A DNA stretch of 64,000 nt from the NCBI GenBank assembly GCA_018645365.1, contig JABGOP010000003.1:3967-67966 (forward strand). Reading direction: 5' to 3'. Below the pieces are notes generated by a model, which was given only the letters and a program-made list of their open reading frames with translations, had not been told where the DNA came from and did not search any database. The stretch is from Candidatus Cloacimonadota bacterium (GTDB taxonomy: Bacteria; Cloacimonadota; Cloacimonadia; Cloacimonadales; TCS61). Made by a program: the position numbers and the translations under genes. Positions 28,667 to 44,860 of the stretch are shown here, piece after piece; the stretch's first letter is position 1; every line of letters begins with the position of its first letter.

Positions 28667-28723
28667 AAACTTCCTTTAAAAAATTTTCTTTTAAAAATTT
28701 ATTTTATAGCAAAATAGTCAAAT

Positions 28724-28750
28724 AAAAAAAGCCCACAAAATTTTGTGGGC
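28724..28750 (-). terminator. Rho-independent terminator ending the kor-hdr-frd-suc-fum-mae operon
   Basis: Perfect 10-bp stem gcccacaaaa/ttttgtgggc (28731-28750), 8 nt after the malic enzyme stop. On the minus strand it is followed by a run of 7 T (28724-28730). Confidence 0.8.
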
Positions 28751-28758
28751 TTCGATTT

Positions 28759-30210
28759 TTATACATTTTCAATCGCAAATTTTAGTGCATTTTGCAACAT
28801 TTCGTCGGGCGGAGTATCTATCAATCCGCTTTCCGTCATCATTTTAAGTGTTTTTTCACTCATCGAAATATCTTTCTTGGCAAGGTTATAAACTTCATCC
28901 CAGCTCATCTCAATTCGTGCCACGCCATCTTCGATGGCTTGCATTGCCACATCAGCTGCTTCTCTCGGAAACACATCCATTTCATCCATTTTTGGTACGA
29001 TATTTTCTGTATTTATACCGCGTTTTTCAGCAAATTTCGCCAAAGATTTAGCGGCGGTAATCGCCATATTATCGGTAATTTTTTTAGCTCGAACCAAAAG
29101 TGCACCTTTCAAAATACCAGGAAAACCAACAGAGTTATTAACCTGATTTGGGAAATCACCACGACCAGTTGCCACAATAAAAGCACCCGCCTCTTTGGCA
29201 GCGTAAGGATAAATTTCTGGAATTGGATTTGCACAAGTAAACACGATAGACTTTTCTGCCATTGAAGCAATCCATTCGGGCTTAACCGTTTCTGGACCTG
29301 GTCTAGAAAGTGCAATCATCACATCTGCGTTTTTACAAGCTTCCGCAAATGTATCAATTTTTTGTGGATTTGTAGTTTCACAAAGTTCCCATTTTCGATA
29401 AAATCGTTCGTCAGTTTCGATGTCTTTCCTATCCAAATGCAAACCACCTTTTGAATCAAACAAGGCAAGATTTTTTGGGTTTCCACCAGCCTTGATAATT
29501 AATCTAGCAATTGTTGTATTGGAAGCACCTGCACCCAAAAGAACAATTTTCACATCTTCAATTTTTTTCTCAACTAATTTGAGAGCATTAATTAAACCTG
29601 CTAAGGTAACGCAAGCTGTGCCTTGTGCATCATCGTGCCAAACTGGAATATCGCACTCTTCGCGCAGAGTATCCAAAACTTTGTAACAGTTTGGTTGAGA
29701 AATATCTTCCAAATTAACAGCACCAAAACTCGGTTGCAACATTTTCACAAATTCGATAATTTTATCTGGATCTTTTTCACCGTTTTCATTTGTACTATCA
29801 ATGCATAATGCCGTGGCATCTACACCACCTAAACATTTCATTAGGAATGCTTTACCTTCCATCACACCGAGCCCTCCCGGTGGCGTGCAATCACCATCGC
29901 CGAGAACACGAGTAGAATCACTAACCACTGCCACATAATTTCCGCGATTGGAAAGCTCGAAACTCGTATCGTTATTGTCACGAATGGTTGTGGAAACCTT
30001 AGAAACGCCCGGCGTGTACCAAACATTAAACCAGTTAAATCCAAAAACACCCGCCTTTGGAGCAGTTTGAACTTTACCACCGTAAAACTTATGAGCTGAA
30101 AACGACAATTCCTTTAGGAATATAGTTTTAGCTTTCGCTATTTGCTCTTTTGTAAAATTTTTTGGGAATACTTCATCTAAGTTTGATAGATCAAGTTTTA
30201 TTTTTCTCAT
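28759..30210 (-). CDS. NAD(P)-dependent malic enzyme
   Basis: VVSDSTRVLGDGD, GVMEGKAFLMK and the Rossmann motif LGAGASNTTIA, collinear with short prokaryotic malic enzymes. Confidence 0.9.
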   Translation of the reverse strand: MRKIKLDLSNLDEVFPKNFTKEQIAKAKTIFLKELSFSAHKFYGGKVQTAPKAGVFGFNWFNVWYTPGVSKVSTTIRDNNDTSFELSNRGNYVAVVSDSTRVLGDGDCTPPGGLGVMEGKAFLMKCLGGVDATALCIDSTNENGEKDPDKIIEFVKMLQPSFGAVNLEDISQPNCYKVLDTLREECDIPVWHDDAQGTACVTLAGLINALKLVEKKIEDVKIVLLGAGASNTTIARLIIKAGGNPKNLALFDSKGGLHLDRKDIETDERFYRKWELCETTNPQKIDTFAEACKNADVMIALSRPGPETVKPEWIASMAEKSIVFTCANPIPEIYPYAAKEAGAFIVATGRGDFPNQVNNSVGFPGILKGALLVRAKKITDNMAITAAKSLAKFAEKRGINTENIVPKMDEMDVFPREAADVAMQAIEDGVARIEMSWDEVYNLAKKDISMSEKTLKMMTESGLIDTPPDEMLQNALKFAIENV

Positions 30211-30211
30211 T

Positions 30212-30769
30212 TTAAAAGCCCTCTTTTTTATATTTTTTTACGCCTTCTTTGTAAATATCATTACCCTGCACATCATTTGCTACAATACATGGGAAATTTT
30301 CCACTTTCATTTCGCGAATTGCTTCTGGACCCAAGTCTTCATAAGCAATAATTTTTGCTTCTTTGATGGAATCTGCCATAACTACTGCTGCCCCACCAAT
30401 TGCTGCCAAATAAACAGCATTATTTTTTTGCATTGAAGCAATTACTTCTTCACTTCGCGGACCTTTCCCAATCATTGCCTTTAAGCCAACATTCAAAAGA
30501 GCCGGTGCATACGGGTCCATTCTGTAGCTTGTGGTTGGCCCCGCTGAACCGATAGGACGACCAGGTGGTGCTGGTGCTGGTCCAACATAGTAGATAATCT
30601 GACCTTCTACATCAAATGGCAATTCTTTACCATTTTCGAGAAGCTCTACTAATCTTTTATGAGCCGCATCTCGTCCACTATAAATAGTCCCAGAAATAAA
30701 TACTTTGTCACCAATTTTCAATTTTTCCAAATCGGTTGTTTTGAGAGGAGTTTCTAAATATATTTCCAT
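30212..30769 (-). CDS. fumB: Class I (Fe-S) fumarate hydratase, beta (C-terminal domain) subunit
   Basis: GTIYSGRDAAHKRL and GPAPAPPGRPIGSAGPTTS, typical of Fe-S hydro-lyase beta subunits. A tartrate dehydratase beta subunit cannot be excluded from sequence alone. Confidence 0.88.
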   Translation of the reverse strand: MEIYLETPLKTTDLEKLKIGDKVFISGTIYSGRDAAHKRLVELLENGKELPFDVEGQIIYYVGPAPAPPGRPIGSAGPTTSYRMDPYAPALLNVGLKAMIGKGPRSEEVIASMQKNNAVYLAAIGGAAVVMADSIKEAKIIAYEDLGPEAIREMKVENFPCIVANDVQGNDIYKEGVKKYKKEGF

Positions 30770-30781
30770 TCTACATCCCTC

Positions 30782-31627
30782 CTAAATTATGATGCTTTTG
30801 TGGCGAGCCGCATGGCATTGCACATTCACAGCTACTGGCATCGACGCAATGTGGCAAGGTTTCGTGAGAATGTGGACAGCGAGAGCTGTCGTATTTCCAC
30901 CTAAACCTTGTGGACCAATGCCGAGATTATTGATTTTTCCCAAGATTATTTTCTCAATTTCCGCCCATTTTGGGTCAGGATTTTCTTCATCTAAATTGCG
31001 TAATAACGATTTTTTTGAAAGAAGGGCACTTTGCTCAAAATTACCACCCAAACCAACACCTACGATAATTGGTGGACAAGGATTTCCGCCTGAACGTGCG
31101 ATTCTATCCACCACAAAATCGATAACACCTTCGATTCCATCAGCAGCTTTCATCATTTTGACTTCGCTCATATTCTCGGAACCACCACCTTTTGGAGCAA
31201 CCGTAATCTTCAAATCTTCACCCGCTACGATTTCGGTATAAATAATAGCTGGCGTATTATCGGTCGTATTTTTCCGTTCTATGATTGGATCATTCACCAT
31301 CGATTTTCGCAAATAACCAGCTTCATAACCTTGTTTAACACCTTCATTTATCGCGGTTGTAAAATCTCCGCCAACAATATGAACATCTTGCCCAATCTCC
31401 ACAAAAATTACCGCAATTCCAGTATCTTGACAAATGGGCATTCTGTTTTCGGCAGCAAGTTCATAATTTTTGAGAAGAATATCCAAAACATCTTTTGCGG
31501 TTGGAGAAGTTTCTTTCACATAAAACTCTTTGATTTTTGCCACCAAATCTTTTCCGATAAAATAATTTGCATCGATACACAAATTTTTCACAATTGGAAT
31601 GATTTCATTTACATTAATTTCTCGCAT
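30782..31627 (-). CDS. fumA: Class I (Fe-S) fumarate hydratase, alpha (N-terminal domain) subunit
   Basis: MPICQDTGIAVIFVE and PCPPIIVGVGLGG with conserved Cys ligands. Confidence 0.88.
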   Translation of the reverse strand: MREINVNEIIPIVKNLCIDANYFIGKDLVAKIKEFYVKETSPTAKDVLDILLKNYELAAENRMPICQDTGIAVIFVEIGQDVHIVGGDFTTAINEGVKQGYEAGYLRKSMVNDPIIERKNTTDNTPAIIYTEIVAGEDLKITVAPKGGGSENMSEVKMMKAADGIEGVIDFVVDRIARSGGNPCPPIIVGVGLGGNFEQSALLSKKSLLRNLDEENPDPKWAEIEKIILGKINNLGIGPQGLGGNTTALAVHILTKPCHIASMPVAVNVQCHAARHKSIII

Positions 31628-31633
31628 AATTCC

Positions 31634-32509
31634 TCATTTTTTGAAAAGCACCTTGGCTACTGTTTCACCAATCTGTGCTGGAGTTTCCGAAACCGTTACG
31701 CCCGCATTTTGAAGAGCTACTATTTTCTCTTGTGCGGTGCCTTTACTGCCAGCAATAATTGCACCAGCATGCCCCATTCTTTTACCTTTTGGTGCAGTTT
31801 GCCCCGCGATAAATGCTACCACTGGCTTGGAAATATTTTCTTTAATAAATTCGGCAGCTTTAATCTCTAATTCGCCACCAATTTCACCGATTAAAACAAT
31901 CGCTTCTGTTTCATTATCGGCTTCAAAAAGTTGTAAAAGTTCAATGTATGAAGCTCCAATAATTGGGTCACCACCAATTCCAACTGCAGTGGTGATGCCA
32001 AATCCAGCTTGTACAATTTGATTCGCCGCTTCGTAAGTAAGTGTGCCCGATTTAGAGATGAGCCCCACATTTCCTTTTTTGAAAACATAGCCCGGCATAA
32101 TCCCAATTTTTGTCTCTTCAGCGGTGATAATTCCTGGACAATTCGGACCAATAAGAGTTGCACCTTTATCCTTCACAAAGCGTTTCGCAATTACCATATC
32201 ACTCACTGGAATGCCCTCTGTAATACAGACAATTATTTCGATACCAGCATCTGCCGCTTCCATTATTGCTTCTGCGGCAAAAGCAGGTGGTACAAAAATA
32301 AGGCTGACATTTGCTCCCGTGGCGATAACTGCTTCAGATACAGAATCGAATACTGGCTTAGCCAAATGAGTGGTTCCCCCTTTTTTGGGAGTAACACCGC
32401 CCACAATATTTGTGCCATACTCTAAACATTGTTCCGCGTGAAAACTACCCTCTTTTCCAGTAAAGCCCTGCACAATTATTTTTGAATTTTTATTCACTAA
32501 AATACTCAT
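31634..32509 (-). CDS. sucD: Succinyl-CoA synthetase alpha subunit
   Basis: [17 protein letters not shown] and the phosphohistidine region MGHAGAII. I prefer the ATG at 32509 (MSILVNK...), which follows GAGAGG and lies 1 nt after the sucC stop. The track extension to 32548 would overlap sucC. Confidence 0.95.
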
Positions 32510-32510
32510 T

Positions 32511-33677
32511 TTAACCTCTCGCAGCAGCCACGACTTTTTTGGCGCCATCGCTCATACTTTCTGCAGTTATGATATTTTGAATGTTTGCTTTTTTGAGAAT
32601 TTCGGATGCTTCTTTCGCATTTGTTCCATCTAATCGAATCACGAGTGGAACATTCACATTTATTTTTTGAGTCGCTTCCAAAATTCCATTCGCAATACGG
32701 TCACAACGCACAATGCCACCAAAAATATTCACAAAAATTGCTTTTACATTTGGGTCTTTCAAAATAATTTCGAAACTTTTGGCGACTGTTTCGGCTGTTG
32801 CTTTTCCACCTACATCAAGAAAATTTGCTGGCTCACCGTTTTCGTGTTTGACAATATCCATCGTGGACATCGCCAAACCAGCCCCATTCACCACACAACC
32901 TACATTTCCATCTAGTTTTACATAACTCAAACCATATTTATCAGCTTCTAATTCAGTTGGTTCTTCTTCGTCAAAATCACGCATTGCGGCAATTTCTTTG
33001 TGTTTGAACATCGCGTTATCATCGAATCCTACTTTTGCGTCGAGAGCGATAAATTCATCATCATCGGTTAATACAAGCGGATTAACTTCAATCATATTCG
33101 CATCTTTTTGCACATATATTTGGTATAAAGATGCGACTAAGTTGGTTACTTTTTTGGTTAAATCTGCGTTCAAACCAAAAGTTTTTGCAATCATTCTGCC
33201 GTGAAAACTGCGAAAACCGATAAGTGGATTTATTTGAATTTTAACGATTTTTTCTGGCATTTCTGCCGCCACTTTTTCGATGTCCATTCCACCTTCTGCC
33301 GATGCAATAATGACTGGCATTTCGGTAGCTCTATCTAAAAGGATACTCAAATAATATTCCTCTTTGATGTCCACCGCTTCCACAATATACACTTTTTGAA
33401 CCAATTTTCCTTCTGGTCCAGTTTGGTGCGTAACAAGATTCATACCCAAAATTTCGTGAGCATATTTTCCTACAGCTTCCAAGTCTTTGGCAAATTTCAC
33501 ACCACCGCCTTTACCTCTACCACCAGCGTGAATTTGTGCTTTCACTACCCAACTTTTTCCGCCAATTTCTTTGGCAGCGGAAATTGCATTTTCTGCATTT
33601 TCGATAATTTTCCCATTTTGAACTGGAATGCCAAAATCGGCAAAAATCTGCTTCGCTTGATATTCGTGAATATTCAT
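32511..33677 (-). CDS. sucC: Succinyl-CoA synthetase beta subunit
   Basis: [12 protein letters not shown], the ATP-grasp region and a C-terminal ligase-CoA domain (GGIVRCD). Confidence 0.96.
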
Positions 33678-33686
33678 ATTCCCTCT

Positions 33687-35357
33687 TTAATAAAGCGTAC
33701 CTTGATAGATCGTTGTCAATTGCTTTGCTTTTACATGATTTGGAATGTAATCTGGCAACAAAATCGGTGAAATTCGTTTTTTATCAATGCCCAATTTTTC
33801 CACCTCTTTCGCGTATTCATCTGCGTGTTTTATTGAAAGTTCACCCAATTCAACTCCATTCAAAACTTTTTCTGCTGCGTTTTTTCCAGCTCTTCTGCCA
33901 AACACAATAATGTCGAGTTGGGAATTGCCCATCAGTCTATTTCTACCGTGAATACCACCAGCTGCTTCGCCAGCTACATAAAGTCCAGGAATGGAAGTTT
34001 CTGATTTCGCATTAATTTCCAATCCACCGTTTTGATAATGCAAAGTTGGGAAAACCAACATCGGATATTCACGAATATCGATGTCAAATCTACTGTATTG
34101 ACGCAACATTGCTGGCAATACACTTTCGATTGTACCTTCACCACTTAATTCTTCGATGAGGGGAGTATCGAGCCAAATTCCTTTCAAACCAGTTGGAGTG
34201 GAAACACCTTTATCATCTTCACATTCACGAATGAAAGCTGATGCTTCGATGTCGCGCGGTTCGAGCGGAAACACAAAAAGTTCACCGTCTTTATTTACCG
34301 GTTGAGCACCCAAAGCACGAATTTTTTCAGTACATAAAAAGCCAACAATTTGTTCTGGAAAAACTGCGCCGGTCGGATGATATTGAACTGAATCCATATA
34401 AAGTAAATTTGCACCAGCACGATAACCCATCACGAGACCATCAGCAGTTGCACCATAATGATTTGTGGTTTCGAAATCACGAATGTGCAATCTACCGAAG
34501 CCACCAGTAGCAATAATCACAGTTTTCGCTTTGACGATAAAATATTCTTTCAATTCCATGTGATACAAAATAGCACCAGCTACTTGCCCTTTGTCATCTT
34601 TGATGAGTTCTGTGGCGGAAGTGTATTCCAAAATATTAATTCCATCAGGGTGACTTTGCACTTCATCACGCAGAACACGGCAAATCCCAGCACCGGTATA
34701 GTCACGAGTCGAGTGCATTCTGTTACGACAAGTTCCACCACCTGGTTTCACCATCATCGAACCGTCTTCGTTTTTATCGAACATTACGCCCAATTCTTCC
34801 AGCCATTTGATAGATTGCGGTGCATCCATTACAAGTGCCTCAACCAAATCTTTTTTATTATCGAAATGACCGCCACCAACTACATCGAGGTAGTGTAAAT
34901 AAGGGTTGTCATCTGTTTGATCTGCCGCCTGAATTCCACCTTGTGCCATCATCGAGTTAGCATCACCGAGACGCAATTTCGTTACCAACATTGTTTCCAC
35001 ACCTTTTTTGGAAGCTTCCAATACTGCTGAAAGTCCTGCGGAACCAGCTCCAATTACGAGAACATCGGTTTCGTAATCTATTTTTGAAAGATCAAAAGTT
35101 GACGATGAATTTCGCGGATAAGCTTCTATAATATCTGCAACTTCATTGATCATTTTGTCGCCTTTATTTGGTCCAATTCGCACTTCTTTGAGAGCATCGT
35201 CCTTGTAATCTGGATGATAAGTATTTAAAATATCTGCGCGTTCTTGTTCACTCATTGCCGGAAAAACTTTTTTACCGTATTTTCTGGCTATTTCGAGTCG
35301 TTTTGCTCGCGTCTCCGCCACTTTCTTGATAGATTCCATCATATATTCTGGATACAT
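33687..35357 (-). CDS. Fumarate reductase/succinate dehydrogenase-family flavoprotein (soluble type, non-covalent FAD predicted)
   Basis: FAD motif DVLVIGAGSAGLSA, VQYHPTG, TEKIRALGA (compare TEGxRGEGG) and GEAAGGIHGRNRLMGNS. At the position of the covalent-FAD His (SHT in SdhA/FrdA) it reads ANSMMAQGG. It has an N-terminal extension of about 95 aa and a short C-terminus. Confidence 0.8.
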   Translation of the reverse strand: MYPEYMMESIKKVAETRAKRLEIARKYGKKVFPAMSEQERADILNTYHPDYKDDALKEVRIGPNKGDKMINEVADIIEAYPRNSSSTFDLSKIDYETDVLVIGAGSAGLSAVLEASKKGVETMLVTKLRLGDANSMMAQGGIQAADQTDDNPYLHYLDVVGGGHFDNKKDLVEALVMDAPQSIKWLEELGVMFDKNEDGSMMVKPGGGTCRNRMHSTRDYTGAGICRVLRDEVQSHPDGINILEYTSATELIKDDKGQVAGAILYHMELKEYFIVKAKTVIIATGGFGRLHIRDFETTNHYGATADGLVMGYRAGANLLYMDSVQYHPTGAVFPEQIVGFLCTEKIRALGAQPVNKDGELFVFPLEPRDIEASAFIRECEDDKGVSTPTGLKGIWLDTPLIEELSGEGTIESVLPAMLRQYSRFDIDIREYPMLVFPTLHYQNGGLEINAKSETSIPGLYVAGEAAGGIHGRNRLMGNSQLDIIVFGRRAGKNAAEKVLNGVELGELSIKHADEYAKEVEKLGIDKKRISPILLPDYIPNHVKAKQLTTIYQGTLY

Positions 35358-35369
35358 AATTCTCTCCGT

Positions 35370-36949: not shown

Positions 36950-36965
36950 CTATTTTTCTCCTCTT

Positions 36966-37370: not shown

Positions 37371-37372
37371 CG

Positions 37373-39754
37373 TTATCTCTCCAATTTAGCTTTTTGCTCA
37401 TCAGAAAGTGAGCCCAATTTATCTATCAATTCAGCAAGTTTGTTGATTTCAGAAATAAATTTCATCAAATCTTTTGCTTCAAATTGTGAAAAAATTAGTC
37501 TATCAGTTTCGATGTTTAGTTTCTTGAGTTTCTCGGCAACCACTTCCATATTTTTGCGAGTTACCGCATTTGCCCATTCGAAACGAGATGCTTTGACGGG
37601 ACTATCACCCAAAAATACAGCATCTGCACCTTTTGCAAAAGCATATTCGATCAAGCTTGGCGTAATTCTACTTACACTTGGCACTCTGAAAACGCGTGCG
37701 TAATTAGTGTATTTCATTTTACGCACACCGCACGCATCGATGAGGCGATAAGTAGTGTTGTCATCCGCAAAAACGATAATCCGTTTTTCATTATCTTTTT
37801 TGAATTTTAGTGCTGCTGAAACTTCTGCATAGAGTTGCTCATTTGTGTAATAATGCAAATCGAGAGCTTCCACGGGACAGCTTTCTAAACACGAGCCACA
37901 CCCCAAACAGAGTGCTTCGTTTACTTCCGCTTTTCCGTCTGCATTGATTGAAATCGCTTTTGGTGGACAAGCATTCAAACACTTTTGACAACCATCACAA
38001 ATATCTTGGTGAACGAACGCTAAAATTGGATCTATCGGCACTTCTTTTTGGGCCAAAGTTGCGATAACTCGTGCTGCTGCTGCACTTGCTTGTGTAACAG
38101 TATCTGGAATATCTTTCGGACCTTGTGCCACACCAGCTAAGAAAACGCCTTCCACTAATGTATCGACTGGCTTATATTTCGGATGAGCTTCTTTGAAAAA
38201 CCCATCATCAGATTTTGCTAATTTCAAAGTATCGGCGACTATTTCGGACGCTTTATTCGGCTCCAAACCGTTCGCCAAAACCACCAAATCAAAATCAGAT
38301 TCGATAATATTACGCGAGAGAGTATCTTCCACCGTTACGGTTACTTTTTTGTTAATTTTATTTTCCACAAAATGGGAAGGCTTGCCACGCACAAATTTGA
38401 TTCCCATATTCTGGGCACGTTTATAATATTCTTCGTAACCTTTGCCAAATGCTCTCAAGTCCGTGTAGAAAATATAGATATCTTTTTCTGGTTTTGCTTG
38501 TTTGAGGAGCGATGCTAATTTTACCGAATACATACAGCAAACGCGCGAGCAATATTCGTTTCCAATTTGTTCATCACGCGAGCCAACGCATTGCACAAAA
38601 GCAATTCTTTTCCCTATTTTTCGAGGTGGCTCCGCTTCCGAAATGTGATCGACAATGCGTTCCATCTCCAAAGCCGTAACCACATTTTTGAATTTACCAT
38701 AGCCAAAAACAGGTTTACGCATCGCATCAAAAATATCGTAACCTGTTGCCACCACAACGCTATCTACTGCTACATCAACGATTTTTTCTTCTTGCGTAAA
38801 ATCTATTGCTTGTTGAGGGCAAATATCCACACATTTTGAACACGAGTTATCGATAAAATGAGAGCAATTTTCAGTATCCAAAATATAGCGATATGGAATT
38901 GCGTGCGGTGCTGGAATGTAAATTGCTTTACGGTCGATGACACCTTGCTCCCAATAATTCGGCTGAGAAACTGGGCAAACTTCTGTACATTTATTGCAAA
39001 TCAAACATTGATCCATATCAATATCACTTTTTATGTAACGCGGATGTATTTTCACTTTTGCTTCAAAATGAAGACGATGTCCGGCAATGTCCAAAATTTC
39101 TGCATTCGTGTAAAGTGTGATGTTCGGATGGTCGGTAACTGCCGCCATTTTAGGTGAAATAATGCACGCTGCACAATCTTCTGTTGGAAAAGTTTTGGTA
39201 AGCACCGCCATCATCCCACCGAGAGTTGGCAATTTTTCTACAAGTGTAACTTTTTTGCCAGAATCAGCTAAATCGAGCGAAGTTTGAATACCAGCAATTC
39301 CACCACCAATAACGAGAATTTCATTACCAAGTTGCATTTTTTTCTCTTGTAAAGCAAAATCTAATTCTGCTTTTGAATGAGATGCATCGACAATATCTTT
39401 TGCTTTTTCGGTAGCAATTTCGGGGATATCTTTATGAATCCACGAACAGTGTTCACGCAGATTGGCAATCTCCAAAACATATGGATTCAAACCTGCTTTT
39501 TTCAAAGCTCCACGAAATGTTTTTTCGTGAAAATGAGGTGAACAAGAAGCGACAACTATTTTTTTTAATCCGTGTTTCTTTACATCGTCGATGATAAGTT
39601 GCTGTCCTTTTCCAGAACACATATGGCTATATTCTTGCACCAAAATATCATCATTATTTTTTTTCAGATGCTCTGTTACTTTTGGTAAATCTACCGTATT
39701 AGAGATGTTCCCGCCACACTGACAGAGATAAATTCCAGTCTTTTTAGTTTCCAT
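37373..39754 (-). CDS. HdrA-like FAD/Fe-S oxidoreductase fused to a C-terminal MvhD-like domain
   Basis: N-terminal Cys-rich domain (IYLCQCGGN...HMCSG...ASCSPH). FAD motif ILVIGGGIAGIQTSL. Inserted ferredoxin CLICNKCTEVCP/CSKCVDICP. C-terminal ferredoxin CDGCQKCLNACP/CLGCGSCLESCP. aa ~657-765 are MvhD-like (IIVFADDNTTY...RVPSVSRI...GADAVFLGDSP). Confidence 0.88.
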   Translation of the reverse strand: METKKTGIYLCQCGGNISNTVDLPKVTEHLKKNNDDILVQEYSHMCSGKGQQLIIDDVKKHGLKKIVVASCSPHFHEKTFRGALKKAGLNPYVLEIANLREHCSWIHKDIPEIATEKAKDIVDASHSKAELDFALQEKKMQLGNEILVIGGGIAGIQTSLDLADSGKKVTLVEKLPTLGGMMAVLTKTFPTEDCAACIISPKMAAVTDHPNITLYTNAEILDIAGHRLHFEAKVKIHPRYIKSDIDMDQCLICNKCTEVCPVSQPNYWEQGVIDRKAIYIPAPHAIPYRYILDTENCSHFIDNSCSKCVDICPQQAIDFTQEEKIVDVAVDSVVVATGYDIFDAMRKPVFGYGKFKNVVTALEMERIVDHISEAEPPRKIGKRIAFVQCVGSRDEQIGNEYCSRVCCMYSVKLASLLKQAKPEKDIYIFYTDLRAFGKGYEEYYKRAQNMGIKFVRGKPSHFVENKINKKVTVTVEDTLSRNIIESDFDLVVLANGLEPNKASEIVADTLKLAKSDDGFFKEAHPKYKPVDTLVEGVFLAGVAQGPKDIPDTVTQASAAAARVIATLAQKEVPIDPILAFVHQDICDGCQKCLNACPPKAISINADGKAEVNEALCLGCGSCLESCPVEALDLHYYTNEQLYAEVSAALKFKKDNEKRIIVFADDNTTYRLIDACGVRKMKYTNYARVFRVPSVSRITPSLIEYAFAKGADAVFLGDSPVKASRFEWANAVTRKNMEVVAEKLKKLNIETDRLIFSQFEAKDLMKFISEINKLAELIDKLGSLSDEQKAKLER

Positions 39755-39758
39755 ATTT

Positions 39759-40298
39759 TCACTCTTTATCTGCTAATTTAAAACCGATTTTTAATGCTTT
39801 TATATTCATTTCGTGAAATCTCGGTTTGATTGAATTTTTTACTGCTTTTTTCAAGGATGCTTCACTCACAACACCTGTTTTTCTCACCAAAAATCCGAGT
39901 GACATAATGTTTGTTGGAAGCACACTTCCTAATTTTTCCATTGCTATGTTTGTAAATGGAATTTCATAAATTGTAGAATCCATTACCGAAACATTTTTTA
40001 CATTTGAACTGTCTGCAATCAAAATTCCATCTGCTTTCAAGTCGTCACTATATTTATCGCAAGCTTCTTGAGTTAATGCCAAAAGCACATCAAAACTTGT
40101 CGCTTCTGGGAAATAGAATTTTTTATCACTAATTATCACATCAGCACGGCTAGCTCCACCGCGAGATTCGGGACCATAACTCTGTGTTTGTGTTACGATT
40201 GCATTGTCTATTACAGCGGCGCGTGCCAAAATAATCCCAGCTGTAATAAGCCCTTGTCCGCCGCTTCCACTGAGACGAATTTCATTCATTCCATTCAT
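39759..40298 (-). CDS. korC: 2-oxoacid:ferredoxin oxidoreductase gamma subunit
   Basis: LSGSGGQGLITAG at the N-terminus; 179 aa. Gene order is delta-alpha-beta-gamma. Confidence 0.88.
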   Translation of the reverse strand: MNGMNEIRLSGSGGQGLITAGIILARAAVIDNAIVTQTQSYGPESRGGASRADVIISDKKFYFPEATSFDVLLALTQEACDKYSDDLKADGILIADSSNVKNVSVMDSTIYEIPFTNIAMEKLGSVLPTNIMSLGFLVRKTGVVSEASLKKAVKNSIKPRFHEMNIKALKIGFKLADKE

Positions 40299-41143
40299 TA
40301 TTTTTCTCCATCTTCAGGCTTGAGAGAATCGATAAGTTTATCGTATACTGCTGTATATTCCGGCTTAATTTCTTTACGGAAAATACCGCGTTTAAGCTTG
40401 TTTTCTCTTTCATTCTCAGTGAGAGCTTCAAAAGATTTTACTGGAATAATGTTTTCTTTCATTTGACGCATCATCTTAGAAGCATCGCCTTTTTTATTCA
40501 ATTTTCCATAAATTACCGGACACGCGCTAATCACTTCTATTAAAGCAAATCCTTTGTGTTCCAAACCTTGCTTAATGAAAGATTGAGTTTCAACAGCGTG
40601 ATACGCCGAGGTTCTCGCTACAAAAGTTGCACCAGCACCCATGGCAAGTTCACAAATATCAAAAGTTGGGTCTAAATTTCCGTAAGGTGTAGTTGTGGCT
40701 TTATCACCAGTGGGGGTGGTTGGAGAATATTGCCCACCTGTCATTCCATAGATGTTGTTATTTATCAAAATAACTGTTAAATTTATGTTACGACGAGCGG
40801 CGTGAATAAAATGATTTCCGCCAATTGCAGTTGCATCACCATCACCAGTTACCACCATCACATCCATTTTTGGTTTATACATTTTGATACCTGTCGCATA
40901 CGCTATTGCTCTACCGTGAAGCGAATGTAATGTATTGAAATCCACATAAACTGGCATTCGACTGGAACATCCAATTCCAGAAACCATCGTTGTGTTTGTA
41001 CGACGCCATTCCAATTCACCAACTGCACGCATAATCGCACCCATCACGATGCCGTTACTACAACCCGGGCACCAAACATGAGGAAATTTTTTCTTCTGTC
41101 TCAAATATTTATTATGAATGTGTTTTTGTTTGATTTTTGACAT
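40298..41143 (-). CDS. korB: 2-oxoacid:ferredoxin oxidoreductase beta (TPP-binding) subunit
   Basis: VWCPGCSNG and the TPP motif VVTGDGDATAIGGNH...NNNIYGMTGGQ. Confidence 0.92.
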   Translation of the reverse strand: MSKIKQKHIHNKYLRQKKKFPHVWCPGCSNGIVMGAIMRAVGELEWRRTNTTMVSGIGCSSRMPVYVDFNTLHSLHGRAIAYATGIKMYKPKMDVMVVTGDGDATAIGGNHFIHAARRNINLTVILINNNIYGMTGGQYSPTTPTGDKATTTPYGNLDPTFDICELAMGAGATFVARTSAYHAVETQSFIKQGLEHKGFALIEVISACPVIYGKLNKKGDASKMMRQMKENIIPVKSFEALTENERENKLKRGIFRKEIKPEYTAVYDKLIDSLKPEDGEK

Positions 41144-41144
41144 T

Positions 41145-42308
41145 TTACCGAACCTCCTTCACTTTATTTACTATATCATCCGGCGTAATCAACTCTCCGT
41201 TACATTTCTGAATTGGAATAATTCTTTTTGTTTTACTTGTGTTTATGTTCCAAATACCACCCATCACTCTTTGAATTTCACCAAGCATCTGACCTTGGCT
41301 CAATTCCGGCACGATTATTGTGTTCACATCTTTGAAATATTCTTTAATTGCTTCATCTGGAAATGGCCAAATTGTGAGTGGACGAATCAGTCCAATTTTC
41401 TTGCCCGATTTGCGTAATTTTTCTACCGCTGTTTTAGCCGCACGAGCTGTAATTCCGGCTGCAAAAATAGCAGTTTTTGCGTCTTCCATTTGGAAATTTT
41501 CCACTTGAATTAAATCCTTCAAATGATGCGTGATTTTCTTACGCAGGCGATCCATCATAATTTTTACTTCATCAGCACGATTGGTTGGAAAACCGCAAGC
41601 ATCGTGTGCCAAACCAGTAACATGGAAACGATAACCCTCACCGTAACTTGCCATTGGATGGATATATTTTGGTTTGTCTTGATAATGTTTGTACCATTCT
41701 GGTGGAACCGTTGGTTTGATTCGATTGACGATTTTCACTTTTTCCAAATCAGGAAGCACCACTGCCTCACGCATATGACCTAAAACTTCATCGAGTAGTA
41801 AAACCACGCAAGTTCTATATTTTTCAGAAAGATTGACCGCCCGAATTGTCAGTTCATAAATTTCTTTCACAGAATCTGGATAGAGAACGATAGCTGGTGC
41901 ATCACCGTGATTTCCCCAACGCGACTGCATAATATCACTTTGTGAAGGTTTGGTCGGCAAACCAGTACTCGGTCCACCACGCATCACATTGACGACTACG
42001 CAAGGTGTTTCTGTTATTTTAGCAAAACCAATCCCTTCCATCATCAAAGAAAATCCGGGACCACTTGTTGCTGTCATCGCTTTTGCACCAGCAAGAGAAG
42101 CACCAATTATTGAAGAAATACCCGCAATTTCATCTTCCATTTGAATAAATTTTCCACCTATTTTGGGTAACTCTGCCGAAAGGATTTCTGCAATTTCGGT
42201 AGATGGAGTAATGGGATAGCCTCCAAAAAAATCTACTCCCGCATCGATAGCTCCACGGGCTACCGCTTCATTGCCTTGCATCAAAATCATTTTATCTGAA
42301 CTTTTCAT
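41145..42308 (-). CDS. korA: 2-oxoacid:ferredoxin oxidoreductase alpha subunit
   Basis: GNEAVARGAIDAGVDFFGGYPITPSTEI and MTATSGPGFSLM. 2-oxoglutarate specificity is inferred from the adjacent sucCD, not from sequence. Confidence 0.92.
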   Translation of the reverse strand: MKSSDKMILMQGNEAVARGAIDAGVDFFGGYPITPSTEIAEILSAELPKIGGKFIQMEDEIAGISSIIGASLAGAKAMTATSGPGFSLMMEGIGFAKITETPCVVVNVMRGGPSTGLPTKPSQSDIMQSRWGNHGDAPAIVLYPDSVKEIYELTIRAVNLSEKYRTCVVLLLDEVLGHMREAVVLPDLEKVKIVNRIKPTVPPEWYKHYQDKPKYIHPMASYGEGYRFHVTGLAHDACGFPTNRADEVKIMMDRLRKKITHHLKDLIQVENFQMEDAKTAIFAAGITARAAKTAVEKLRKSGKKIGLIRPLTIWPFPDEAIKEYFKDVNTIIVPELSQGQMLGEIQRVMGGIWNINTSKTKRIIPIQKCNGELITPDDIVNKVKEVR

Positions 42309-42317
42309 AATCTTCCT

Positions 42318-42638
42318 CTATTTTTCCTTCGCACCAGTTATGGCAAAATCAGGGCATAACCTGTCGCACATTTCGCAATGAATGCATTTTTCTGGATGTT
42401 TCACATAAGGTGAACCATCTGGTTTACTTGCCAAAGTTCCAGTTGGGCAAAATGAGACACAAATGCCACACTTTTTACACCAATCGTGGTAAATATAAAC
42501 CGGAGATTCTCGATAATCACCTTCCGATTTAACCTCTGTTTCTTCCACTTCCATCTTCGCCGCAGAACCATCACCGTGAATTACAGTGCCAGTTTTAAGC
42601 TTTTCTACTTCACCATTTTTCAATGTCTTCGACATCAT
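42318..42638 (-). CDS. korD: 2-oxoacid:ferredoxin oxidoreductase delta (ferredoxin) subunit
   Basis: CKKCGICVSFCP and CIHCEMCDRLCP, preceded by an acidic N-terminal extension of about 45 aa. AAGGAG Shine-Dalgarno. Confidence 0.85.
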   Translation of the reverse strand: MMSKTLKNGEVEKLKTGTVIHGDGSAAKMEVEETEVKSEGDYRESPVYIYHDWCKKCGICVSFCPTGTLASKPDGSPYVKHPEKCIHCEMCDRLCPDFAITGAKEK

Positions 42639-44759: not shown

Positions 44760-44860
44760 CACTGTCTTTCTAAAAATAACACATTTTTACGCAAGATATT
44801 TTTCACATATTTCTTGACATAAAAAACGCCAAAAAGAACTAAACGCAAATGGAGAAAGTT

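What the first reader, a model, noticed from the sequence alone, without database searches (positions are those of the whole stretch)
28724..42638. 14-gene operon encoding five consecutive steps linking pyruvate/malate to 2-oxoglutarate
Seen in sequence: korD-korA-korB-korC, hdrA(mvhD)-hdrC-hdrB, the FeS and flavoprotein subunits, sucC-sucD, fumA-fumB and malic enzyme all lie on the minus strand. Intergenic distances run from a 4-nt overlap to a 16-nt gap. An AAGGAG-led first gene opens the array and a strong terminator (28724-28750) closes it.

Established knowledge: these enzymes catalyse contiguous reactions, namely malate/pyruvate, fumarate, succinate, succinyl-CoA and 2-oxoglutarate.

Inference: having the whole C4-C5 branch plus its redox module as one transcription unit is unusual. 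It places the ferredoxin-producing or consuming Kor directly next to the Hdr-like module, which suggests a dedicated ferredoxin electron circuit. Direction (reductive or oxidative) cannot be read from sequence. KorD also carries an acidic N-terminal extension of about 45 aa.
Basis: partly seen in the sequence, partly recalled or inferred. Interest (0 to 1): 0.6.

Follow-up and report, generated by a model that had tools for sequence, protein, structure and literature searches.

The report
Hdr-wired fumarate reductase TCA-branch operon
A Cloacimonadota bacterium packs the five enzymes linking pyruvate/malate to 2-oxoglutarate into one 14-gene array, built around a soluble fumarate reductase wired to a methanogen-type electron-splitting (heterodisulfide reductase) module, a design already predicted from other genomes but never tested biochemically.

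Summary
Fourteen minus-strand genes (42638 to 28759) are separated by -4 to +16 nt. Each has a Shine-Dalgarno-like site, and the only strong terminator lies at 28753-28728. They encode KorDABC, HdrA fused to MvhD, HdrC, HdrB, a [2Fe-2S]+2x[4Fe-4S] subunit, an SdhA/FrdA-like flavoprotein, SucCD, FumAB and malic enzyme. None has a membrane helix.

My reading is that HdrB plus the FeS subunit form a split TfrB. Fumarate would then be the high-potential acceptor of flavin-based electron bifurcation at HdrA, which yields low-potential electrons for ferredoxin or Kor.

Direction is partly readable from sequence. The histidine that binds FAD covalently is Asn in all 77 family members, while the catalytic residues are invariant. 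This favours fumarate reduction.

No electron-donor gene lies in the window. Relatives carry MvhAG there instead.

The frdBA-hdr link recurs across MAGs labelled as about seven phyla. Kor adjacency in this lineage looks like a cassette insertion into a variable slot.

Similar clusters have been published (Williams 2021, Rubin-Blum 2019, Koendjbiharie 2020), so this is a variant of a predicted kind that has not been characterised biochemically. KorD's "N-terminal extension" is normal for delta subunits.

The parts
42639..42761 (-). uvrB-korD intergenic region holding a candidate promoter (TTGATA-16 nt-TAGAGT, 42754-42727) and the AAGGAG ribosome-binding site
   Evidence: Consensus scan and sequence. 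About 26 nt just after the uvrB stop are conserved in L012 and L052. Promoter function is not shown, and no terminator separates this region from uvrB.
42318..42638 (-). korD, delta (2x[4Fe-4S] ferredoxin-like) subunit of a four-subunit 2-oxoacid:ferredoxin oxidoreductase, 106 aa
   Evidence: Fer4 domains. Best NCBIfam hits are OorD (54.7 bits, cutoff 93) and OGOR_delta. It has 8 Cys.
41145..42308 (-). korA, alpha subunit, 387 aa
   Evidence: POR_N and PFOR_II domains. NF006412 scores 543 bits, above its cutoff of 411. The 2-oxoglutarate synthase alpha model scores 425, below its cutoff of 579. PDB hits: 8ys5_A (2-oxoglutarate synthase) 295 bits and 6n2n_A 250 bits, against 75 bits for a pyruvate enzyme.
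40298..41143 (-). korB, beta (TPP-binding) subunit, 281 aa
   Evidence: TPP_enzyme_C domain. Best NCBIfam hit is the 2-oxoglutarate ferredoxin oxidoreductase beta model, 314 bits against a cutoff of 364.
39759..40298 (-). korC, gamma subunit, 179 aa
   Evidence: POR domain. NF006323 scores 183 bits against a cutoff of 235.
37373..39754 (-). hdrA fused to mvhD, 793 aa: full-length bifurcating-type HdrA (residues 1-650) plus an MvhD [2Fe-2S] domain (656-782)
   Evidence: 666 bits to methanogen HdrA 8rvu_a and 5odc_A over the whole length, with all Cys motifs aligned. The MvhD part matches 5odc_D and Pfam FlpD (85.7 bits). Best NCBIfam hit is HdrA2, 862 bits against a cutoff of 1100.
36966..37370 (-). 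hdrC-like subunit, 134 aa, with two CxxCxxCxxxCP motifs; shorter than methanogen HdrC
   Evidence: Fer4_17/Fer4_8 domains. TIGR03290 scores 73.8 bits against a cutoff of 160. Sequence; 8 Cys.
36050..36949 (-). hdrB-like subunit, 299 aa, with two complete CCG motifs. Exactly 10 Cys: C9..C41C42..C84xxC87 and C156..C195C196..C231xxC234
   Evidence: CCG domain present twice. 157 bits to HdrB 8rvu_b over residues 1-295. Aligns to the C-terminal half (positions 262-476) of the TfrB profile. Sequence.
35370..36053 (-). frdB, FeS subunit, 227 aa, with one plant-type [2Fe-2S] motif (C41, C46, C49, C67) and two CxxCxxCxxxCP motifs. No CCG domain. Its start overlaps the hdrB stop by 4 nt
   Evidence: Fer2 and Fer4 domains. 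Weak hits to TfrB, SdhB and dhsB. 12 Cys. Always adjacent to frdA in relatives.
33687..35357 (-). frdA, soluble fumarate reductase flavoprotein, 556 aa. It has a conserved 95-aa N-terminal extension and Asn134 in place of the covalent-FAD histidine
   Evidence: FAD_binding_2 domain at residues 98-479. Best NCBIfam hit is TfrA, 323 bits against a cutoff of 718. The alignment to E. coli SdhA shows the catalytic His, Thr, Glu, Arg, His and Arg conserved and His45 replaced by Asn. All of these positions are invariant in 77 family members. The AF2 model matches E. coli FrdA 1kf6_A.
32511..33677 (-). sucC, ADP-forming succinate-CoA ligase beta subunit, 388 aa
   Evidence: NF001913 scores 573 bits, above its cutoff of 370.
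31634..32509 (-). sucD, succinate-CoA ligase alpha subunit, 291 aa from the corrected start
   Evidence: NF004230 scores 447.5 bits, above its cutoff of 336, with the alignment starting at residue 14 of the longest ORF. Gene calls of 291 aa in L001 and L003.
30782..31627 (-). fumA, class I (Fe-S) fumarate hydratase alpha subunit, 281 aa
   Evidence: NF004885 scores 403 bits, above its cutoff of 276.
30212..30769 (-). fumB, fumarate hydratase beta subunit, 185 aa
   Evidence: NF005310 scores 284 bits, above its cutoff of 238.
28759..30210 (-). Malic enzyme (decarboxylating malate dehydrogenase), 483 aa
   Evidence: malic and Malic_M domains. 727 bits over the full length to malic enzyme 3nv9_A.
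28720..28753 (-). Intrinsic terminator closing the array
   Evidence: 11-bp stem with 5 GC pairs and a 4-nt loop, followed by TTTTTATTT.

Best explanation
The array is a single, probably co-transcribed, cytoplasmic pathway block for the C4-C5 part of the TCA cycle. Its steps are malic enzyme, fumarase, fumarate reductase, succinyl-CoA synthetase and a 2-oxoglutarate-type ferredoxin oxidoreductase.

Its core is a soluble fumarate reductase with non-covalent FAD. The enzyme has no membrane anchor and no quinone partner. Instead it is wired through iron-sulfur clusters in the order FrdA(FAD), FrdB ([2Fe-2S] + 2x[4Fe-4S]), HdrB (two non-cubane CCG clusters), HdrC (2x[4Fe-4S]) and HdrA(FAD).

HdrB plus FrdB together equal the two halves of methanogen TfrB. 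The methanogen loop (Hdr reduces CoM-S-S-CoB, and Tfr re-oxidises the thiols with fumarate) is therefore short-circuited into one complex.

In this model fumarate (E0' about +30 mV) is the high-potential acceptor of flavin-based electron bifurcation at HdrA. A mid-potential donor, not encoded in the window, would dock at the fused MvhD domain. In relatives the donor is the MvhAG hydrogenase, that is, H2. The second electron leaves at low potential through HdrA's ferredoxin domains to ferredoxin. It can then drive Kor as a 2-oxoglutarate synthase, or feed Rnf or a hydrogenase.

**Shown here:** gene content, cofactor motifs, absence of membrane helices, loss of the covalent-FAD histidine, and conserved synteny.

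**Inferred:** physical complex formation, bifurcation itself, the donor, and the direction of the Kor, SucCD and malic-enzyme steps.
For: - **Operon structure.** Gaps run from -4 to +16 nt, every gene has an SD-like site, and there is one strong terminator.
- **HdrA is the canonical bifurcating type.** It scores 666 bits against methanogen HdrA over its whole length, all Fe-S Cys motifs are aligned, and MvhD is fused to it.
- **Complete cofactor motifs.** HdrB has exactly the 10 Cys of two CCG motifs, HdrC has 8 Cys and FrdB has 12 Cys in 2Fe2S + 2x4Fe4S motifs.
- **Split TfrB.** HdrB-like and FrdB map colinearly onto the C- and N-terminal halves of the TfrB profile. hdrB and frdB overlap by 4 nt.
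- **Only one CCG-domain protein** was found among the ORFs of the window that were scanned.
- **FrdA active site.** All fumarate/succinate catalytic residues are present, but Asn replaces the FAD-binding His, and both features are invariant in 77 of 77 family members. Homologues with non-covalent FAD reduce fumarate only (PMC9557727).
- **Soluble.** None of the 14 proteins has a transmembrane segment.
- **Synteny.** frdBA is adjacent to hdr genes in at least 38 of 53 informative loci, in MAGs labelled Cloacimonadota, Marinimicrobia/Fidelibacterota, Delongbacteria, Spirochaetes, Sumerlaeota, Aminicenantes and Clostridia.
- **All three arms in one cluster in relatives.** L013, L042 and L058 have kor'(D)ABC-hdrC-hdrB-hdrA-mvhD-frdB-frdA followed by a hydrogenase gene pair. 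Pfam confirmed this pair as MvhG-like and MvhA-like in L013 only; in L042 and L058 it is inferred from ORF sizes and sequences. In the Aminicenantes locus L067, korDABC sits between hdrB and hdrA.
- **Independent published proposals of the same coupling:** PMC6315080, PMC7282089, PMC8542988.
Against: - No biochemical or structural data exist for any member of this family that I could find.
- No donor module (Mvh, Flx, Fdh or Nfn) is encoded in the 64-kb window, so the third arm of the bifurcation is missing here.
- About a quarter of relatives have frdBA with no hdr nearby (L015, L021, L022, L027, L054). FrdBA can therefore be encoded, and perhaps work, apart from Hdr.
- The Kor next to Hdr in this window is not the paralogue that is conserved next to Hdr in other phyla.
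- Malic enzyme and an ATP-forming SucCD would fit an oxidative, catabolic flow equally well. The window also holds a methylmalonyl-CoA-decarboxylase-type Na+ pump and urocanase, which point to amino-acid fermentation rather than CO2 fixation.
- The rule that non-covalent FAD means reduction only is an extrapolation from other subfamilies.
Confidence: 0.55

Rival explanations
1. Thiol-shuttle model, as drawn for Cloacimonadota in PMC8542988. HdrABC reduces a soluble heterodisulfide or disulfide, and a separate thiol:fumarate reductase re-oxidises the thiols. The two enzymes communicate through a diffusible thiol, as in methanogens.
For: The flavoprotein's best NCBIfam hit is TfrA and sources name it "fumarate reductase (CoM/CoB) subunit A". 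HdrB keeps both CCG motifs, which form the disulfide-reducing site in methanogens.
Against: There is only one CCG protein in the cluster and FrdB has no CCG domain, so there is no second thiol-oxidising site. The TfrA and TfrB equivalog cutoffs are missed by a wide margin: 323 against 718 for TfrA, and 48 and 33 against 385 for TfrB. CoM and CoB are not known in these bacteria (own knowledge; not testable here).
Confidence: 0.08
2. Oxidative, confurcating succinate dehydrogenase. The operon runs 2-oxoglutarate or propionate, via succinyl-CoA, succinate, fumarate and malate, to pyruvate. Hdr would combine low-potential electrons from Kor (ferredoxin) with succinate electrons to reduce a mid-potential acceptor. 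This would solve the uphill succinate oxidation step of syntrophic or amino-acid-oxidising metabolism.
For: Apart from the succinyl-CoA synthetase genes, which follow the hdr-frd genes, gene order runs along the oxidative pathway. SucCD would yield ATP in this direction, and malic enzyme usually decarboxylates. Urocanase (histidine to glutamate) and a methylmalonyl-CoA-type decarboxylase are nearby. Cloacimonadota are discussed as propionate and amino-acid oxidisers (PMC12590816).
Against: Asn replaces the covalent-FAD histidine in all 77 family members. Such enzymes do not oxidise succinate (PMC9557727). The mean potential of succinate plus ferredoxin electrons (about -210 to -235 mV) is still too positive to reduce NAD+ or protons, except at extreme ratios (own calculation from standard potentials). 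Relatives put an H2-oxidising MvhAG into the same cluster.
Confidence: 0.12
3. Linear 2-oxoglutarate:fumarate oxidoreductase without bifurcation. Kor is itself the donor, passing electrons through KorD, the MvhD domain, HdrA, HdrC, HdrB and FrdB to FrdA.
For: Kor is the only possible donor encoded in the operon, and it lies directly upstream of the MvhD-fused HdrA. Kor-like genes are interleaved with hdr genes in the Aminicenantes locus L067.
Against: Thirteen of the fifteen other loci with this Hdr type (hdrA-mvhD fusion in the order A-C-B) have no kor within 10 kb; in the other two (L019, L032) the contig ends at hdrA, so the upstream side is unseen. Clusters that do carry kor' also carry MvhAG as a donor. 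Keeping a complete bifurcating HdrA would serve no purpose in a strongly downhill transfer of about 550 mV.
Confidence: 0.1
4. Co-located but functionally independent modules. Kor, Hdr, Frd and the suc-fum-mae genes are merely packed together, and Hdr serves another partner.
For: The blocks move independently in relatives. sucCD-fumAB lies upstream of hdr in Marinimicrobia and on the opposite strand in L007 and L010. frdBA stands alone in L015 and L022. A variable slot separates korC from frdB.
Against: The hdr-frdBA linkage recurs in MAGs labelled as about seven phyla, in two different hdr gene orders. hdrB and frdB overlap by 4 nt. The split-TfrB logic also argues for coupling.
Confidence: 0.1

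Closest known systems
Cloacimonadota (Ca. Celaenobacter) TFR-OGOR-fumarase-succinyl-CoA synthetase-Mvh-Hdr gene cluster (Williams et al. 2021, PMC8542988)
   Same: Same phylum and the same FrdBA family (L042, 68% identity). In both, Hdr, an OGOR-type enzyme, fumarase and SCS are clustered.
   Different: Celaenobacter has a separate HdrA and MvhD in the order hdrC-hdrB-hdrA-mvhD, a different Kor paralogue (about 45% identity), and a pair of hydrogenase-sized genes after frdA, reported as the group 3c hydrogenase Mvh by PMC8542988. The window has an HdrA-MvhD fusion in the order A-C-B and no hydrogenase, and it ends with malic enzyme. The paper interprets the cluster as a thiol-mediated rTCA cycle; the anatomy here argues for direct wiring.
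korABCD / tfrAB interspersed with flxABCD-hdrABC in tubeworm symbionts and Thioflavicoccus mobilis (Rubin-Blum et al. 2019, PMC6315080)
   Same: Four-subunit OGOR, Tfr-like fumarate reductase and HdrABC are in one cluster. The authors already proposed that these form a complex that shuttles electrons to both OGOR and fumarate reductase.
   Different: There the donor module is FlxABCD (NADH), and the cluster sits with ATP-citrate lyase in an autotroph. No Flx or ACL is seen in this window. The hosts are Gammaproteobacteria.
"Succinate operon" of Pseudoclostridium thermosuccinogenes: fumarase, Flx-Hdr, fumarate reductase (Koendjbiharie et al. 2020, PMC7282089)
   Same: A fermentative anaerobe in which fumarate reduction is proposed to drive ferredoxin reduction through Hdr. 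The operon was reported as about 4-fold more highly expressed as a block under CO2 limitation, although not significantly for every subunit.
   Different: It uses an Flx donor and has no Kor, SucCD or malic enzyme in the operon. Whether its Frd belongs to the same subfamily was not tested here.
Methanogen thiol:fumarate reductase TfrAB together with MvhAGD-HdrABC (PDB 5odc, 8rvu; Heim et al. 1998 as cited in PMC8542988)
   Same: The same cofactor inventory. The same incomplete reductive TCA branch ending at 2-oxoglutarate is known from methanogens (own knowledge). HdrA, HdrB and MvhD are clear homologues.
   Different: TfrB is split into FrdB and HdrB, and that single HdrB is shared with HdrA/C. 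There is no CoM/CoB loop. The equivalog scores fall below the cutoffs.
Hdr-formylmethanofuran dehydrogenase supercomplex (PDB 7bkb; function from own knowledge)
   Same: It is a precedent for the low-potential branch of HdrA feeding a CO2-fixing enzyme directly through a polyferredoxin. This is the analogy for Hdr to KorD to 2-oxoglutarate synthase. Chains 7bkb_A, 7bkb_B and 7bkb_K appear among the hits.
   Different: A different CO2-fixing enzyme. A Kor-Hdr contact is purely hypothetical here.
Membrane-bound complex II (SdhABCD/FrdABCD) and type E SdhABEF / MFR
   Same: The flavoprotein fold and active site match. HdrB-like scores about equally against the SdhE CCG subunit model (186.6 bits).
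   Different: There is no membrane anchor, no covalent-FAD His and no 3Fe-4S motif in FrdB. HdrA and HdrC are present.

Membership tests
Thiol:fumarate reductase TfrAB (methanogen type) | Flavoprotein reaches the TfrA equivalog score (NF004900, cutoff 718 bits) | tested here: not met
   323 bits. The alignment covers only profile positions 6-424 of 546. The protein has an extra 95-aa N-terminus and a short C-terminus.
Thiol:fumarate reductase TfrAB (methanogen type) | TfrB is one polypeptide carrying [2Fe-2S], two [4Fe-4S] and two CCG motifs | tested here: not met
   The same motif set is present but split over two genes. FrdB carries 2Fe2S + 2x4Fe4S, and HdrB-like carries two CCG motifs. They align to TfrB profile positions 181-206 and 262-476 respectively.
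Thiol:fumarate reductase TfrAB (methanogen type) | Uses CoM-SH plus CoB-SH as electron donor | not testable with these tools
   This needs an enzyme assay or a whole-genome search for cofactor biosynthesis.
SdhA/FrdA flavoprotein superfamily (fumarate/succinate active site) | Catalytic residues equivalent to E. coli SdhA H242, T254, E255, R286, H354 and R399 | tested here: met
   All are conserved in the window protein and invariant in 77 of 77 family members. The fold matches 1kf6_A.
Complex II (bidirectional, membrane-bound) | Histidine for the 8-alpha-N3-histidyl covalent FAD link (E. coli SdhA H45) | tested here: not met
   Asn134 occupies this position, and Asn is found there in 77 of 77 members.
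Complex II (bidirectional, membrane-bound) | Membrane anchor subunit(s) / quinone site | tested here: not met
   None of the 14 products has a hydrophobic segment typical of a transmembrane helix. No anchor gene is present in the array.
Bifurcating HdrABC (methanogen type) | Full-length HdrA with FAD domain, N-terminal cluster, inserted ferredoxin domain and C-terminal ferredoxin domain | tested here: met
   666 bits over residues 1-650 against 8rvu_a, with all Cys motifs aligned. However, it falls below the NCBIfam equivalog cutoffs (862 against 1100).
Bifurcating HdrABC (methanogen type) | HdrB with two complete CCG motifs, and HdrC with two [4Fe-4S] motifs | tested here: met
   10 Cys in HdrB in CX31CC..CXXC and CX38CC..CXXC arrangements. 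8 Cys in HdrC. HdrC is truncated (134 aa) relative to the 144-198-position profiles.
Bifurcating HdrABC (methanogen type) | Substrate is the CoM-S-S-CoB heterodisulfide | not testable with these tools
   Context (FrdBA fused to the module by a 4-nt overlap) argues for fumarate as the terminal acceptor instead. This is an inference.
Mvh-Hdr (H2-dependent) | MvhD present, together with MvhA/MvhG [NiFe] hydrogenase | tested here: not met
   The MvhD domain is present, fused to HdrA. No hydrogenase gene was found among the window ORFs scanned. MvhG/MvhA-like genes are present in relative L013 and, judging by ORF sizes and sequences, in L042 and L058.
Flx-Hdr (NADH-dependent) | flxABCD genes next to hdrABC | tested here: not met
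   No Flx-like genes lie in the array or elsewhere among the window ORFs scanned.
Sulfur-oxidising sHdr system | Short HdrA (about 350 aa, no ferredoxin domains), duplicated hdrC/hdrB, lipoate-binding proteins | tested here: not met
   HdrA is the long methanogen type. sHdrA 6tjr_A matches only residues 331-564, at 156 bits. hdrC and hdrB are single-copy.
Four-subunit 2-oxoglutarate:ferredoxin oxidoreductase (KorDABC/OorDABC) | Delta, alpha, beta and gamma subunits encoded together | tested here: met
Four-subunit 2-oxoglutarate:ferredoxin oxidoreductase (KorDABC/OorDABC) | Specificity for 2-oxoglutarate | tested here: inconclusive
   OGOR models are the best specific hits but fall below their cutoffs (alpha 425/579, beta 314/364, delta 55/93). 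The closest named structures are OGORs (8ys5, 6n2n), far ahead of the pyruvate and oxalate enzymes. Context with sucCD fits. No assay is available.
Succinyl-CoA synthetase, class I two-subunit fumarase, malic enzyme | Reach curated family cutoffs, or show a full-length match to a solved enzyme | tested here: met
   SucC 573 (cutoff 370), SucD 447 (336), FumA 403 (276), FumB 284 (238). Malic enzyme scores 727 bits to 3nv9_A.

The most novel reading that the evidence does not exclude
Kor, HdrA(MvhD)CB and FrdBA assemble into one soluble supercomplex. A single bifurcation event at HdrA sends one electron downhill to fumarate and the other uphill directly into KorD and Kor, with no free ferredoxin. 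Reducing one fumarate would then supply exactly the two low-potential electrons needed to carboxylate the succinyl-CoA made from it into 2-oxoglutarate. Two non-adjacent steps of a reductive TCA branch would be energetically coupled inside one machine, by analogy with the Hdr-formylmethanofuran dehydrogenase complex of methanogens.
Probability: 0.2. Interest if true: 0.75.

Novelty: new variant of a known kind. Interest (0 to 1): 0.45.

Why it matters
If the wiring is as inferred, fumarate reduction is a further exergonic "driver" reaction for flavin-based electron bifurcation. It would operate in MAGs assigned to several widespread uncultured anaerobic phyla, including Cloacimonadota, Marinimicrobia, Delongbacteria, Aminicenantes and Sumerlaeota.

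That would explain how organisms without quinone-linked fumarate reductase run the fumarate step. It would also explain how they gain low-potential ferredoxin, either for 2-oxoglutarate synthesis (CO2 assimilation) or for Rnf- or hydrogenase-linked energy conservation. It would change carbon and energy budgets inferred for these groups in sediments and digesters.

The compact 14-gene version here contains no hydrogenase. It offers a convenient, self-contained gene set for heterologous expression to test a hypothesis that has been in the literature since 2019 without biochemical proof.

Tried and rejected
- **Internal signals.** I scanned for internal promoters and terminators. The counts equal the shuffle expectation, so the scan neither supports nor excludes internal signals.
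- **Regulatory RNA.** An Rfam search of the whole window found only one tRNA and no riboswitch or leader upstream of korD.
- **Electron donor.** I scanned 50 of the 55 window ORFs of at least 90 aa for Mvh, Flx, Fdh or Nfn genes and found none.
- **sHdr reading.** The sulfur-oxidation interpretation used for some Cloacimonadota in PMC8542988 is rejected, because HdrA is the long methanogen type with MvhD.
- **Qmo reading.** Rejected: the qmoC model scores 56.6 bits against a cutoff of 300, and there is no membrane domain.
- **L-aspartate oxidase reading of the flavoprotein.** Rejected: the nadB model scores 264 bits against a cutoff of 453, and the gene is obligatorily paired with an SdhB/TfrB-like FeS subunit.
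- **KorD "acidic extension".** Rejected as a special feature.
- **AF2 model of FrdA.** The model (pLDDT 75) and a PDB fold search only confirmed the FrdA/SdhA fold. They gave no function for the 95-aa N-terminal extension.
- **Literature.** Six of the seven full-text searches run looked for biochemical characterisation of an Hdr-coupled fumarate reductase and found only genomic or transcriptomic proposals. The Koendjbiharie and van Kranenburg 2019 preprint is not in the library.
- **Whole-genome questions.** Presence of ATP-citrate lyase, citrate synthase, IDH, methylmalonyl-CoA mutase, Rnf and hydrogenases could not be addressed from a 64-kb window.

Full report

Yes. The minus strand between 42638 and 28759 carries 14 consecutive ORFs.
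- korD, korA, korB and korC encode a four-subunit 2-oxoacid:ferredoxin oxidoreductase.
- A 793-aa protein is HdrA with MvhD fused to its C-terminus.
- A 134-aa protein is HdrC-like, and a 299-aa protein is HdrB-like with two CCG domains.
- A 227-aa protein is an Fe-S subunit, and a 556-aa protein is an SdhA/FrdA-like flavoprotein.
- sucC, sucD, fumA, fumB and a malic enzyme complete the array.

Junctions run from a 4-nt overlap (hdrB/frdB) to a 16-nt gap (hdrC/hdrB). This holds once sucD is started at 32509, which is Met14 of the longest ORF. That start is supported by the profile alignment and by public gene calls of 291 aa. Every gene is preceded by a GGAG/GAGG-type site.

The only convincing minus-strand terminator in 28000-45000 is the 11-bp stem at 28753-28728, followed by a T-run. 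Weak internal promoter- and terminator-like matches occur at the frequency seen in shuffled sequence, so they carry no information.

There is one caveat. uvrB lies 123 nt upstream on the same strand with no terminator between. A 26-nt element just after the uvrB stop, containing the predicted -35 box TTGATA, is conserved in two related genomes.

**2. Organism and public status**

The flavoprotein sequence is already public. It is listed as [quoted passage not shown], and JGI names it succinate dehydrogenase/fumarate reductase or "fumarate reductase (CoM/CoB) subunit A". The same array occurs on contigs from several metagenomes. The closest genomes are Cloacimonadota MAGs, at 79-84% identity.

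**3. Anatomy of the redox module**

*HdrA.* It is a complete, methanogen-type bifurcating subunit. It scores 666 bits over residues 1-650 against the HdrA chains of solved Mvh-Hdr complexes, with every cysteine motif aligned. Residues 656-782 match MvhD.

*HdrB, HdrC and FrdB.* HdrB-like has exactly ten cysteines, arranged as two full CCG motifs. HdrC-like has two CxxCxxCxxxCP motifs. The Fe-S subunit has a plant-type [2Fe-2S] motif plus two CxxCxxCxxxCP motifs, and no CCG domain.

*Relation to TfrB.* Against the NCBIfam model of methanogen TfrB, the Fe-S subunit aligns to the N-terminal half. HdrB-like aligns to the C-terminal half, positions 262-476. The pair is therefore a split TfrB. Its CCG half is at the same time the HdrB of an HdrABC set.

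*Thiol loop.* This is the only CCG protein found in the cluster or among the window ORFs scanned. A methanogen-style loop through a soluble thiol needs two CCG sites, one reducing a disulfide and one oxidising thiols. With only one CCG protein, direct cluster-to-cluster electron transfer from HdrA to FrdA is the simpler reading.

*Solubility.* None of the 14 proteins has a transmembrane segment, so the system is soluble and independent of quinones.

**4. The flavoprotein**

Its alignment to E. coli SdhA shows the catalytic His, Thr, Glu, Arg, His and Arg all conserved. The histidine that carries covalent FAD (SdhA His45) is Asn134. In an alignment of 77 family members from about seven phyla, these seven positions are invariant, including the Asn.

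Characterised homologues with non-covalent FAD are the soluble fumarate reductases and L-aspartate oxidase. They reduce fumarate but cannot oxidise succinate, because the covalent link is what raises the flavin potential (PMC9557727). Direction is therefore partly readable, and the fumarate/succinate step is predicted to run reductively.

The protein also carries a conserved 95-aa N-terminal extension with no Pfam match, and a shortened C-terminus. An AF2 model (pLDDT 75) confirms the FrdA/SdhA core but does not explain the extension.

**5. Comparative genomics**

Across the 80 related loci retrieved from species-representative genomes:
- frdB-frdA are adjacent in 68 of 73 cases.
- Hdr genes lie immediately upstream in at least 38 of 53 loci with enough flank.
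- The loci come from MAGs labelled Cloacimonadota, Marinimicrobia/Fidelibacterota, Delongbacteria, Spirochaetes, Sumerlaeota, Aminicenantes and Clostridia.

Two architectures recur.
- **Type 1**, as in the window: hdrA(mvhD fusion)-hdrC-hdrB-frdB-frdA. It usually sits with sucCD, fumAB and malic enzyme, and never with a donor gene nearby.
- **Type 2**: korD'A'B'C'-hdrC-hdrB-hdrA-mvhD-frdB-frdA followed by a hydrogenase gene pair, seen in Cloacimonadota L013 and L042 and in Sumerlaeota L058. Pfam confirmed FlpD, Oxidored_q6 and NiFeSe_Hases domains in L013. In L042 and L058 the hydrogenase genes are inferred from ORF sizes and sequences.

In the Aminicenantes locus L067, korDABC sits between hdrB and hdrA.

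Type 2 clusters therefore encode all three arms of a bifurcating system:
- the donor, H2 through Mvh;
- the high-potential acceptor, fumarate through FrdAB;
- a candidate low-potential acceptor, an OGOR-type enzyme working as a 2-oxoglutarate synthase.

**6. How specific is the Kor-Hdr adjacency in this window?**

It is less specific than it looks. Cloacimonadota share the frame uvrB-korDABC-[slot]-frdBA-sucCD-fumAB. The slot holds different inserts in different genomes:
- a glyoxalase-family, methylmalonyl-CoA-epimerase-like gene in L009, L011, L012 and L052;
- the type 1 hdr cassette in the window;
- a decayed epimerase remnant followed by the kor'-hdrCBA-mvhD cassette in L013.

The window's Kor is the orthologue (79-84% identity) of the frame Kor. 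It is not the Hdr-associated Kor' paralogue, which is about 45% identical.

The window's HdrA is also closer to Delongbacteria HdrA (66%) than to type 1 HdrA in another Cloacimonadota (60%). The reverse holds for FrdA. This hints that the cassette was acquired laterally.

The full set of kor, hdr, suc, fum and mae within 10 kb is found in only 1 of 29 relatives with long flanks on both sides (L013). The complete consolidation is rare, while its building blocks are common.

**7. Mechanism**

The best-supported model (confidence about 0.55) has fumarate (E0' about +30 mV, textbook value) replacing the heterodisulfide as the exergonic acceptor of flavin-based bifurcation at HdrA.
- Electrons enter from a mid-potential donor at the MvhD domain.
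- One electron runs through HdrC, HdrB and FrdB to the FrdA FAD and on to fumarate.
- The other electron leaves at low potential through HdrA's ferredoxin domains.

The donor is unknown for this organism, because no Mvh, Flx, Fdh or Nfn gene was found among the window ORFs scanned.

The flow through Kor, SucCD and malic enzyme is unresolved, and two schemes fit.
- **(a) Reductive branch to 2-oxoglutarate.** This is the methanogen-like "horseshoe", or part of an rTCA cycle as proposed for relatives in PMC8542988. It has an attractive stoichiometry: each fumarate reduced yields the two low-potential electrons needed to carboxylate the resulting succinyl-CoA.
- **(b) Convergent fermentation.** Here 2-oxoglutarate from glutamate or histidine is oxidised to succinyl-CoA, and malate or fumarate is reduced to succinate. 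This scheme is favoured by three context features: urocanase; an Na+-translocating methylmalonyl-CoA-type decarboxylase 5 kb downstream; and the epimerase-like gene in the slot of relatives.

A fully oxidative, confurcating succinate dehydrogenase is disfavoured. The missing covalent-FAD histidine and the energetics both argue against it.

**8. What is already known?**

The idea is not new.
- Williams et al. 2021 described a Cloacimonadota cluster with TFR, OGOR, fumarase, SCS, Mvh and Hdr, and inferred a functional link.
- Rubin-Blum et al. 2019 noted korABCD and tfrAB interspersed with flxABCD-hdrABC. They proposed a complex shuttling electrons to both enzymes.
- Koendjbiharie et al. described a fumarase/Flx-Hdr/fumarate reductase "succinate operon" in P. 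thermosuccinogenes. They reported it as about 4-fold more highly expressed as a block under CO2 limitation, although not significantly for every subunit, and proposed ferredoxin reduction coupled to fumarate reduction.

I found no biochemical or structural characterisation. What is specific to this window is the type 1 module (MvhD fused to HdrA, no donor gene) inserted seamlessly between korDABC and frdBA. This gives a 14-gene array that ends with malic enzyme.

**9. Membership**

The proteins work like, but do not qualify as, methanogen TfrAB.
- The TfrA cutoff is missed (323 bits against 718).
- TfrB is split into two genes.

They also do not qualify as complex II.
- There is no covalent-FAD His.
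- There is no membrane anchor.

They do have the defining cofactor motifs of bifurcating HdrABC/MvhD, but they lack its hydrogenase and, presumably, its substrate.

Kor is of the OGOR clade by best hits and by the closest solved structures, but it falls below the specific cutoffs. Its specificity therefore remains an inference.

**10. Verdict**

This is a real, well-delimited operon-like array. It is a new variant of a predicted kind that is known from the literature and has not been characterised experimentally. It is moderately interesting, mainly as a compact test system for fumarate-driven electron bifurcation.

Noticed in passing
window 19676-23328 (-): Four-gene set for an Na+-translocating biotin decarboxylase. 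It comprises an mmdA-like carboxyltransferase (TIGR01117, 839 bits against a cutoff of 999), a 182-aa ORF with no family match, a biotin carrier, and the Na+-pumping beta subunit (TIGR01109, 490 bits). It lies 5 kb downstream of the operon and links succinyl-CoA to propionate metabolism.
   Followed up: partly
window 58063-60519 (+), with a GFO/IDH/MocA oxidoreductase at 56902-58050: Archaeal-type ether-lipid genes in a bacterium: a short-chain prenyl diphosphate synthase, a UbiA-type enzyme like geranylgeranylglycerol-phosphate geranylgeranyltransferase (212 bits against a cutoff of 296), and a GGGP synthase (TIGR01769, 217 bits, above its cutoff of 161.6). From my own knowledge, such genes have been reported for FCB-group bacteria including Cloacimonadota. 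I did not check the literature here.
   Followed up: partly
window 30-2423 (+): A 797-aa protein that fuses a complete phosphoglucose isomerase (residues 42-514) to a C-terminal Macro (ADP-ribose-binding) domain (648-760).
   Followed up: no
L009 5650-6700, L011 950-1850, L012 8570-8974, L052 6000-7050; L013 2150-2900: In related Cloacimonadota the slot between korC and frdB holds a 134-aa glyoxalase-family gene (methylmalonyl-CoA-epimerase-like) followed by about 330 nt of non-coding DNA, instead of hdr. L013 keeps only a frame-shifted remnant of this gene ahead of an inserted kor'-hdrCBA-mvhD cassette. The slot is variable.
   Followed up: partly
window 33687-35357 (-), residues 1-95 of the flavoprotein: A conserved N-terminal extension (MYPEYM..S...V..TR..R...G..FP.M...ER...L...HPDY) is present in all 77 family members. 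It has no Pfam match. In the AF2 model it forms two long helices plus a small sheet. Its role is unknown; it may be a docking surface for FrdB or HdrB.
   Followed up: partly
window 42735-42762 (-): An element of about 26 nt directly after the uvrB stop codon (AGAGGTTATTGATACCAGAAATGGACTC) is conserved in L012 and L052, although the rest of the intergenic region is not. It may be a promoter or an operator for the kor operon.
   Followed up: partly
window 13523-15553 (+): A urocanase of 676 aa with an N-terminal extension of about 87 aa ahead of the Urocanase_N domain. It points to histidine (and hence glutamate) catabolism in this organism.
   Followed up: no
window 37373-39754 compared with L017 and L007: The window's HdrA is more similar to Delongbacteria HdrA (66%) than to type 1 HdrA of another Cloacimonadota (60%). 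FrdA shows the opposite pattern (72% against 82%). This suggests the hdr cassette was acquired laterally.
   Followed up: no
window 44849-47824 (+) and 48224-49753 (-): A TonB-dependent receptor with a CarboxypepD_reg N-terminal domain, and a protein with a type IX secretion C-terminal sorting domain. Both are typical FCB-group cell-envelope features and are consistent with the taxonomic assignment.
   Followed up: no
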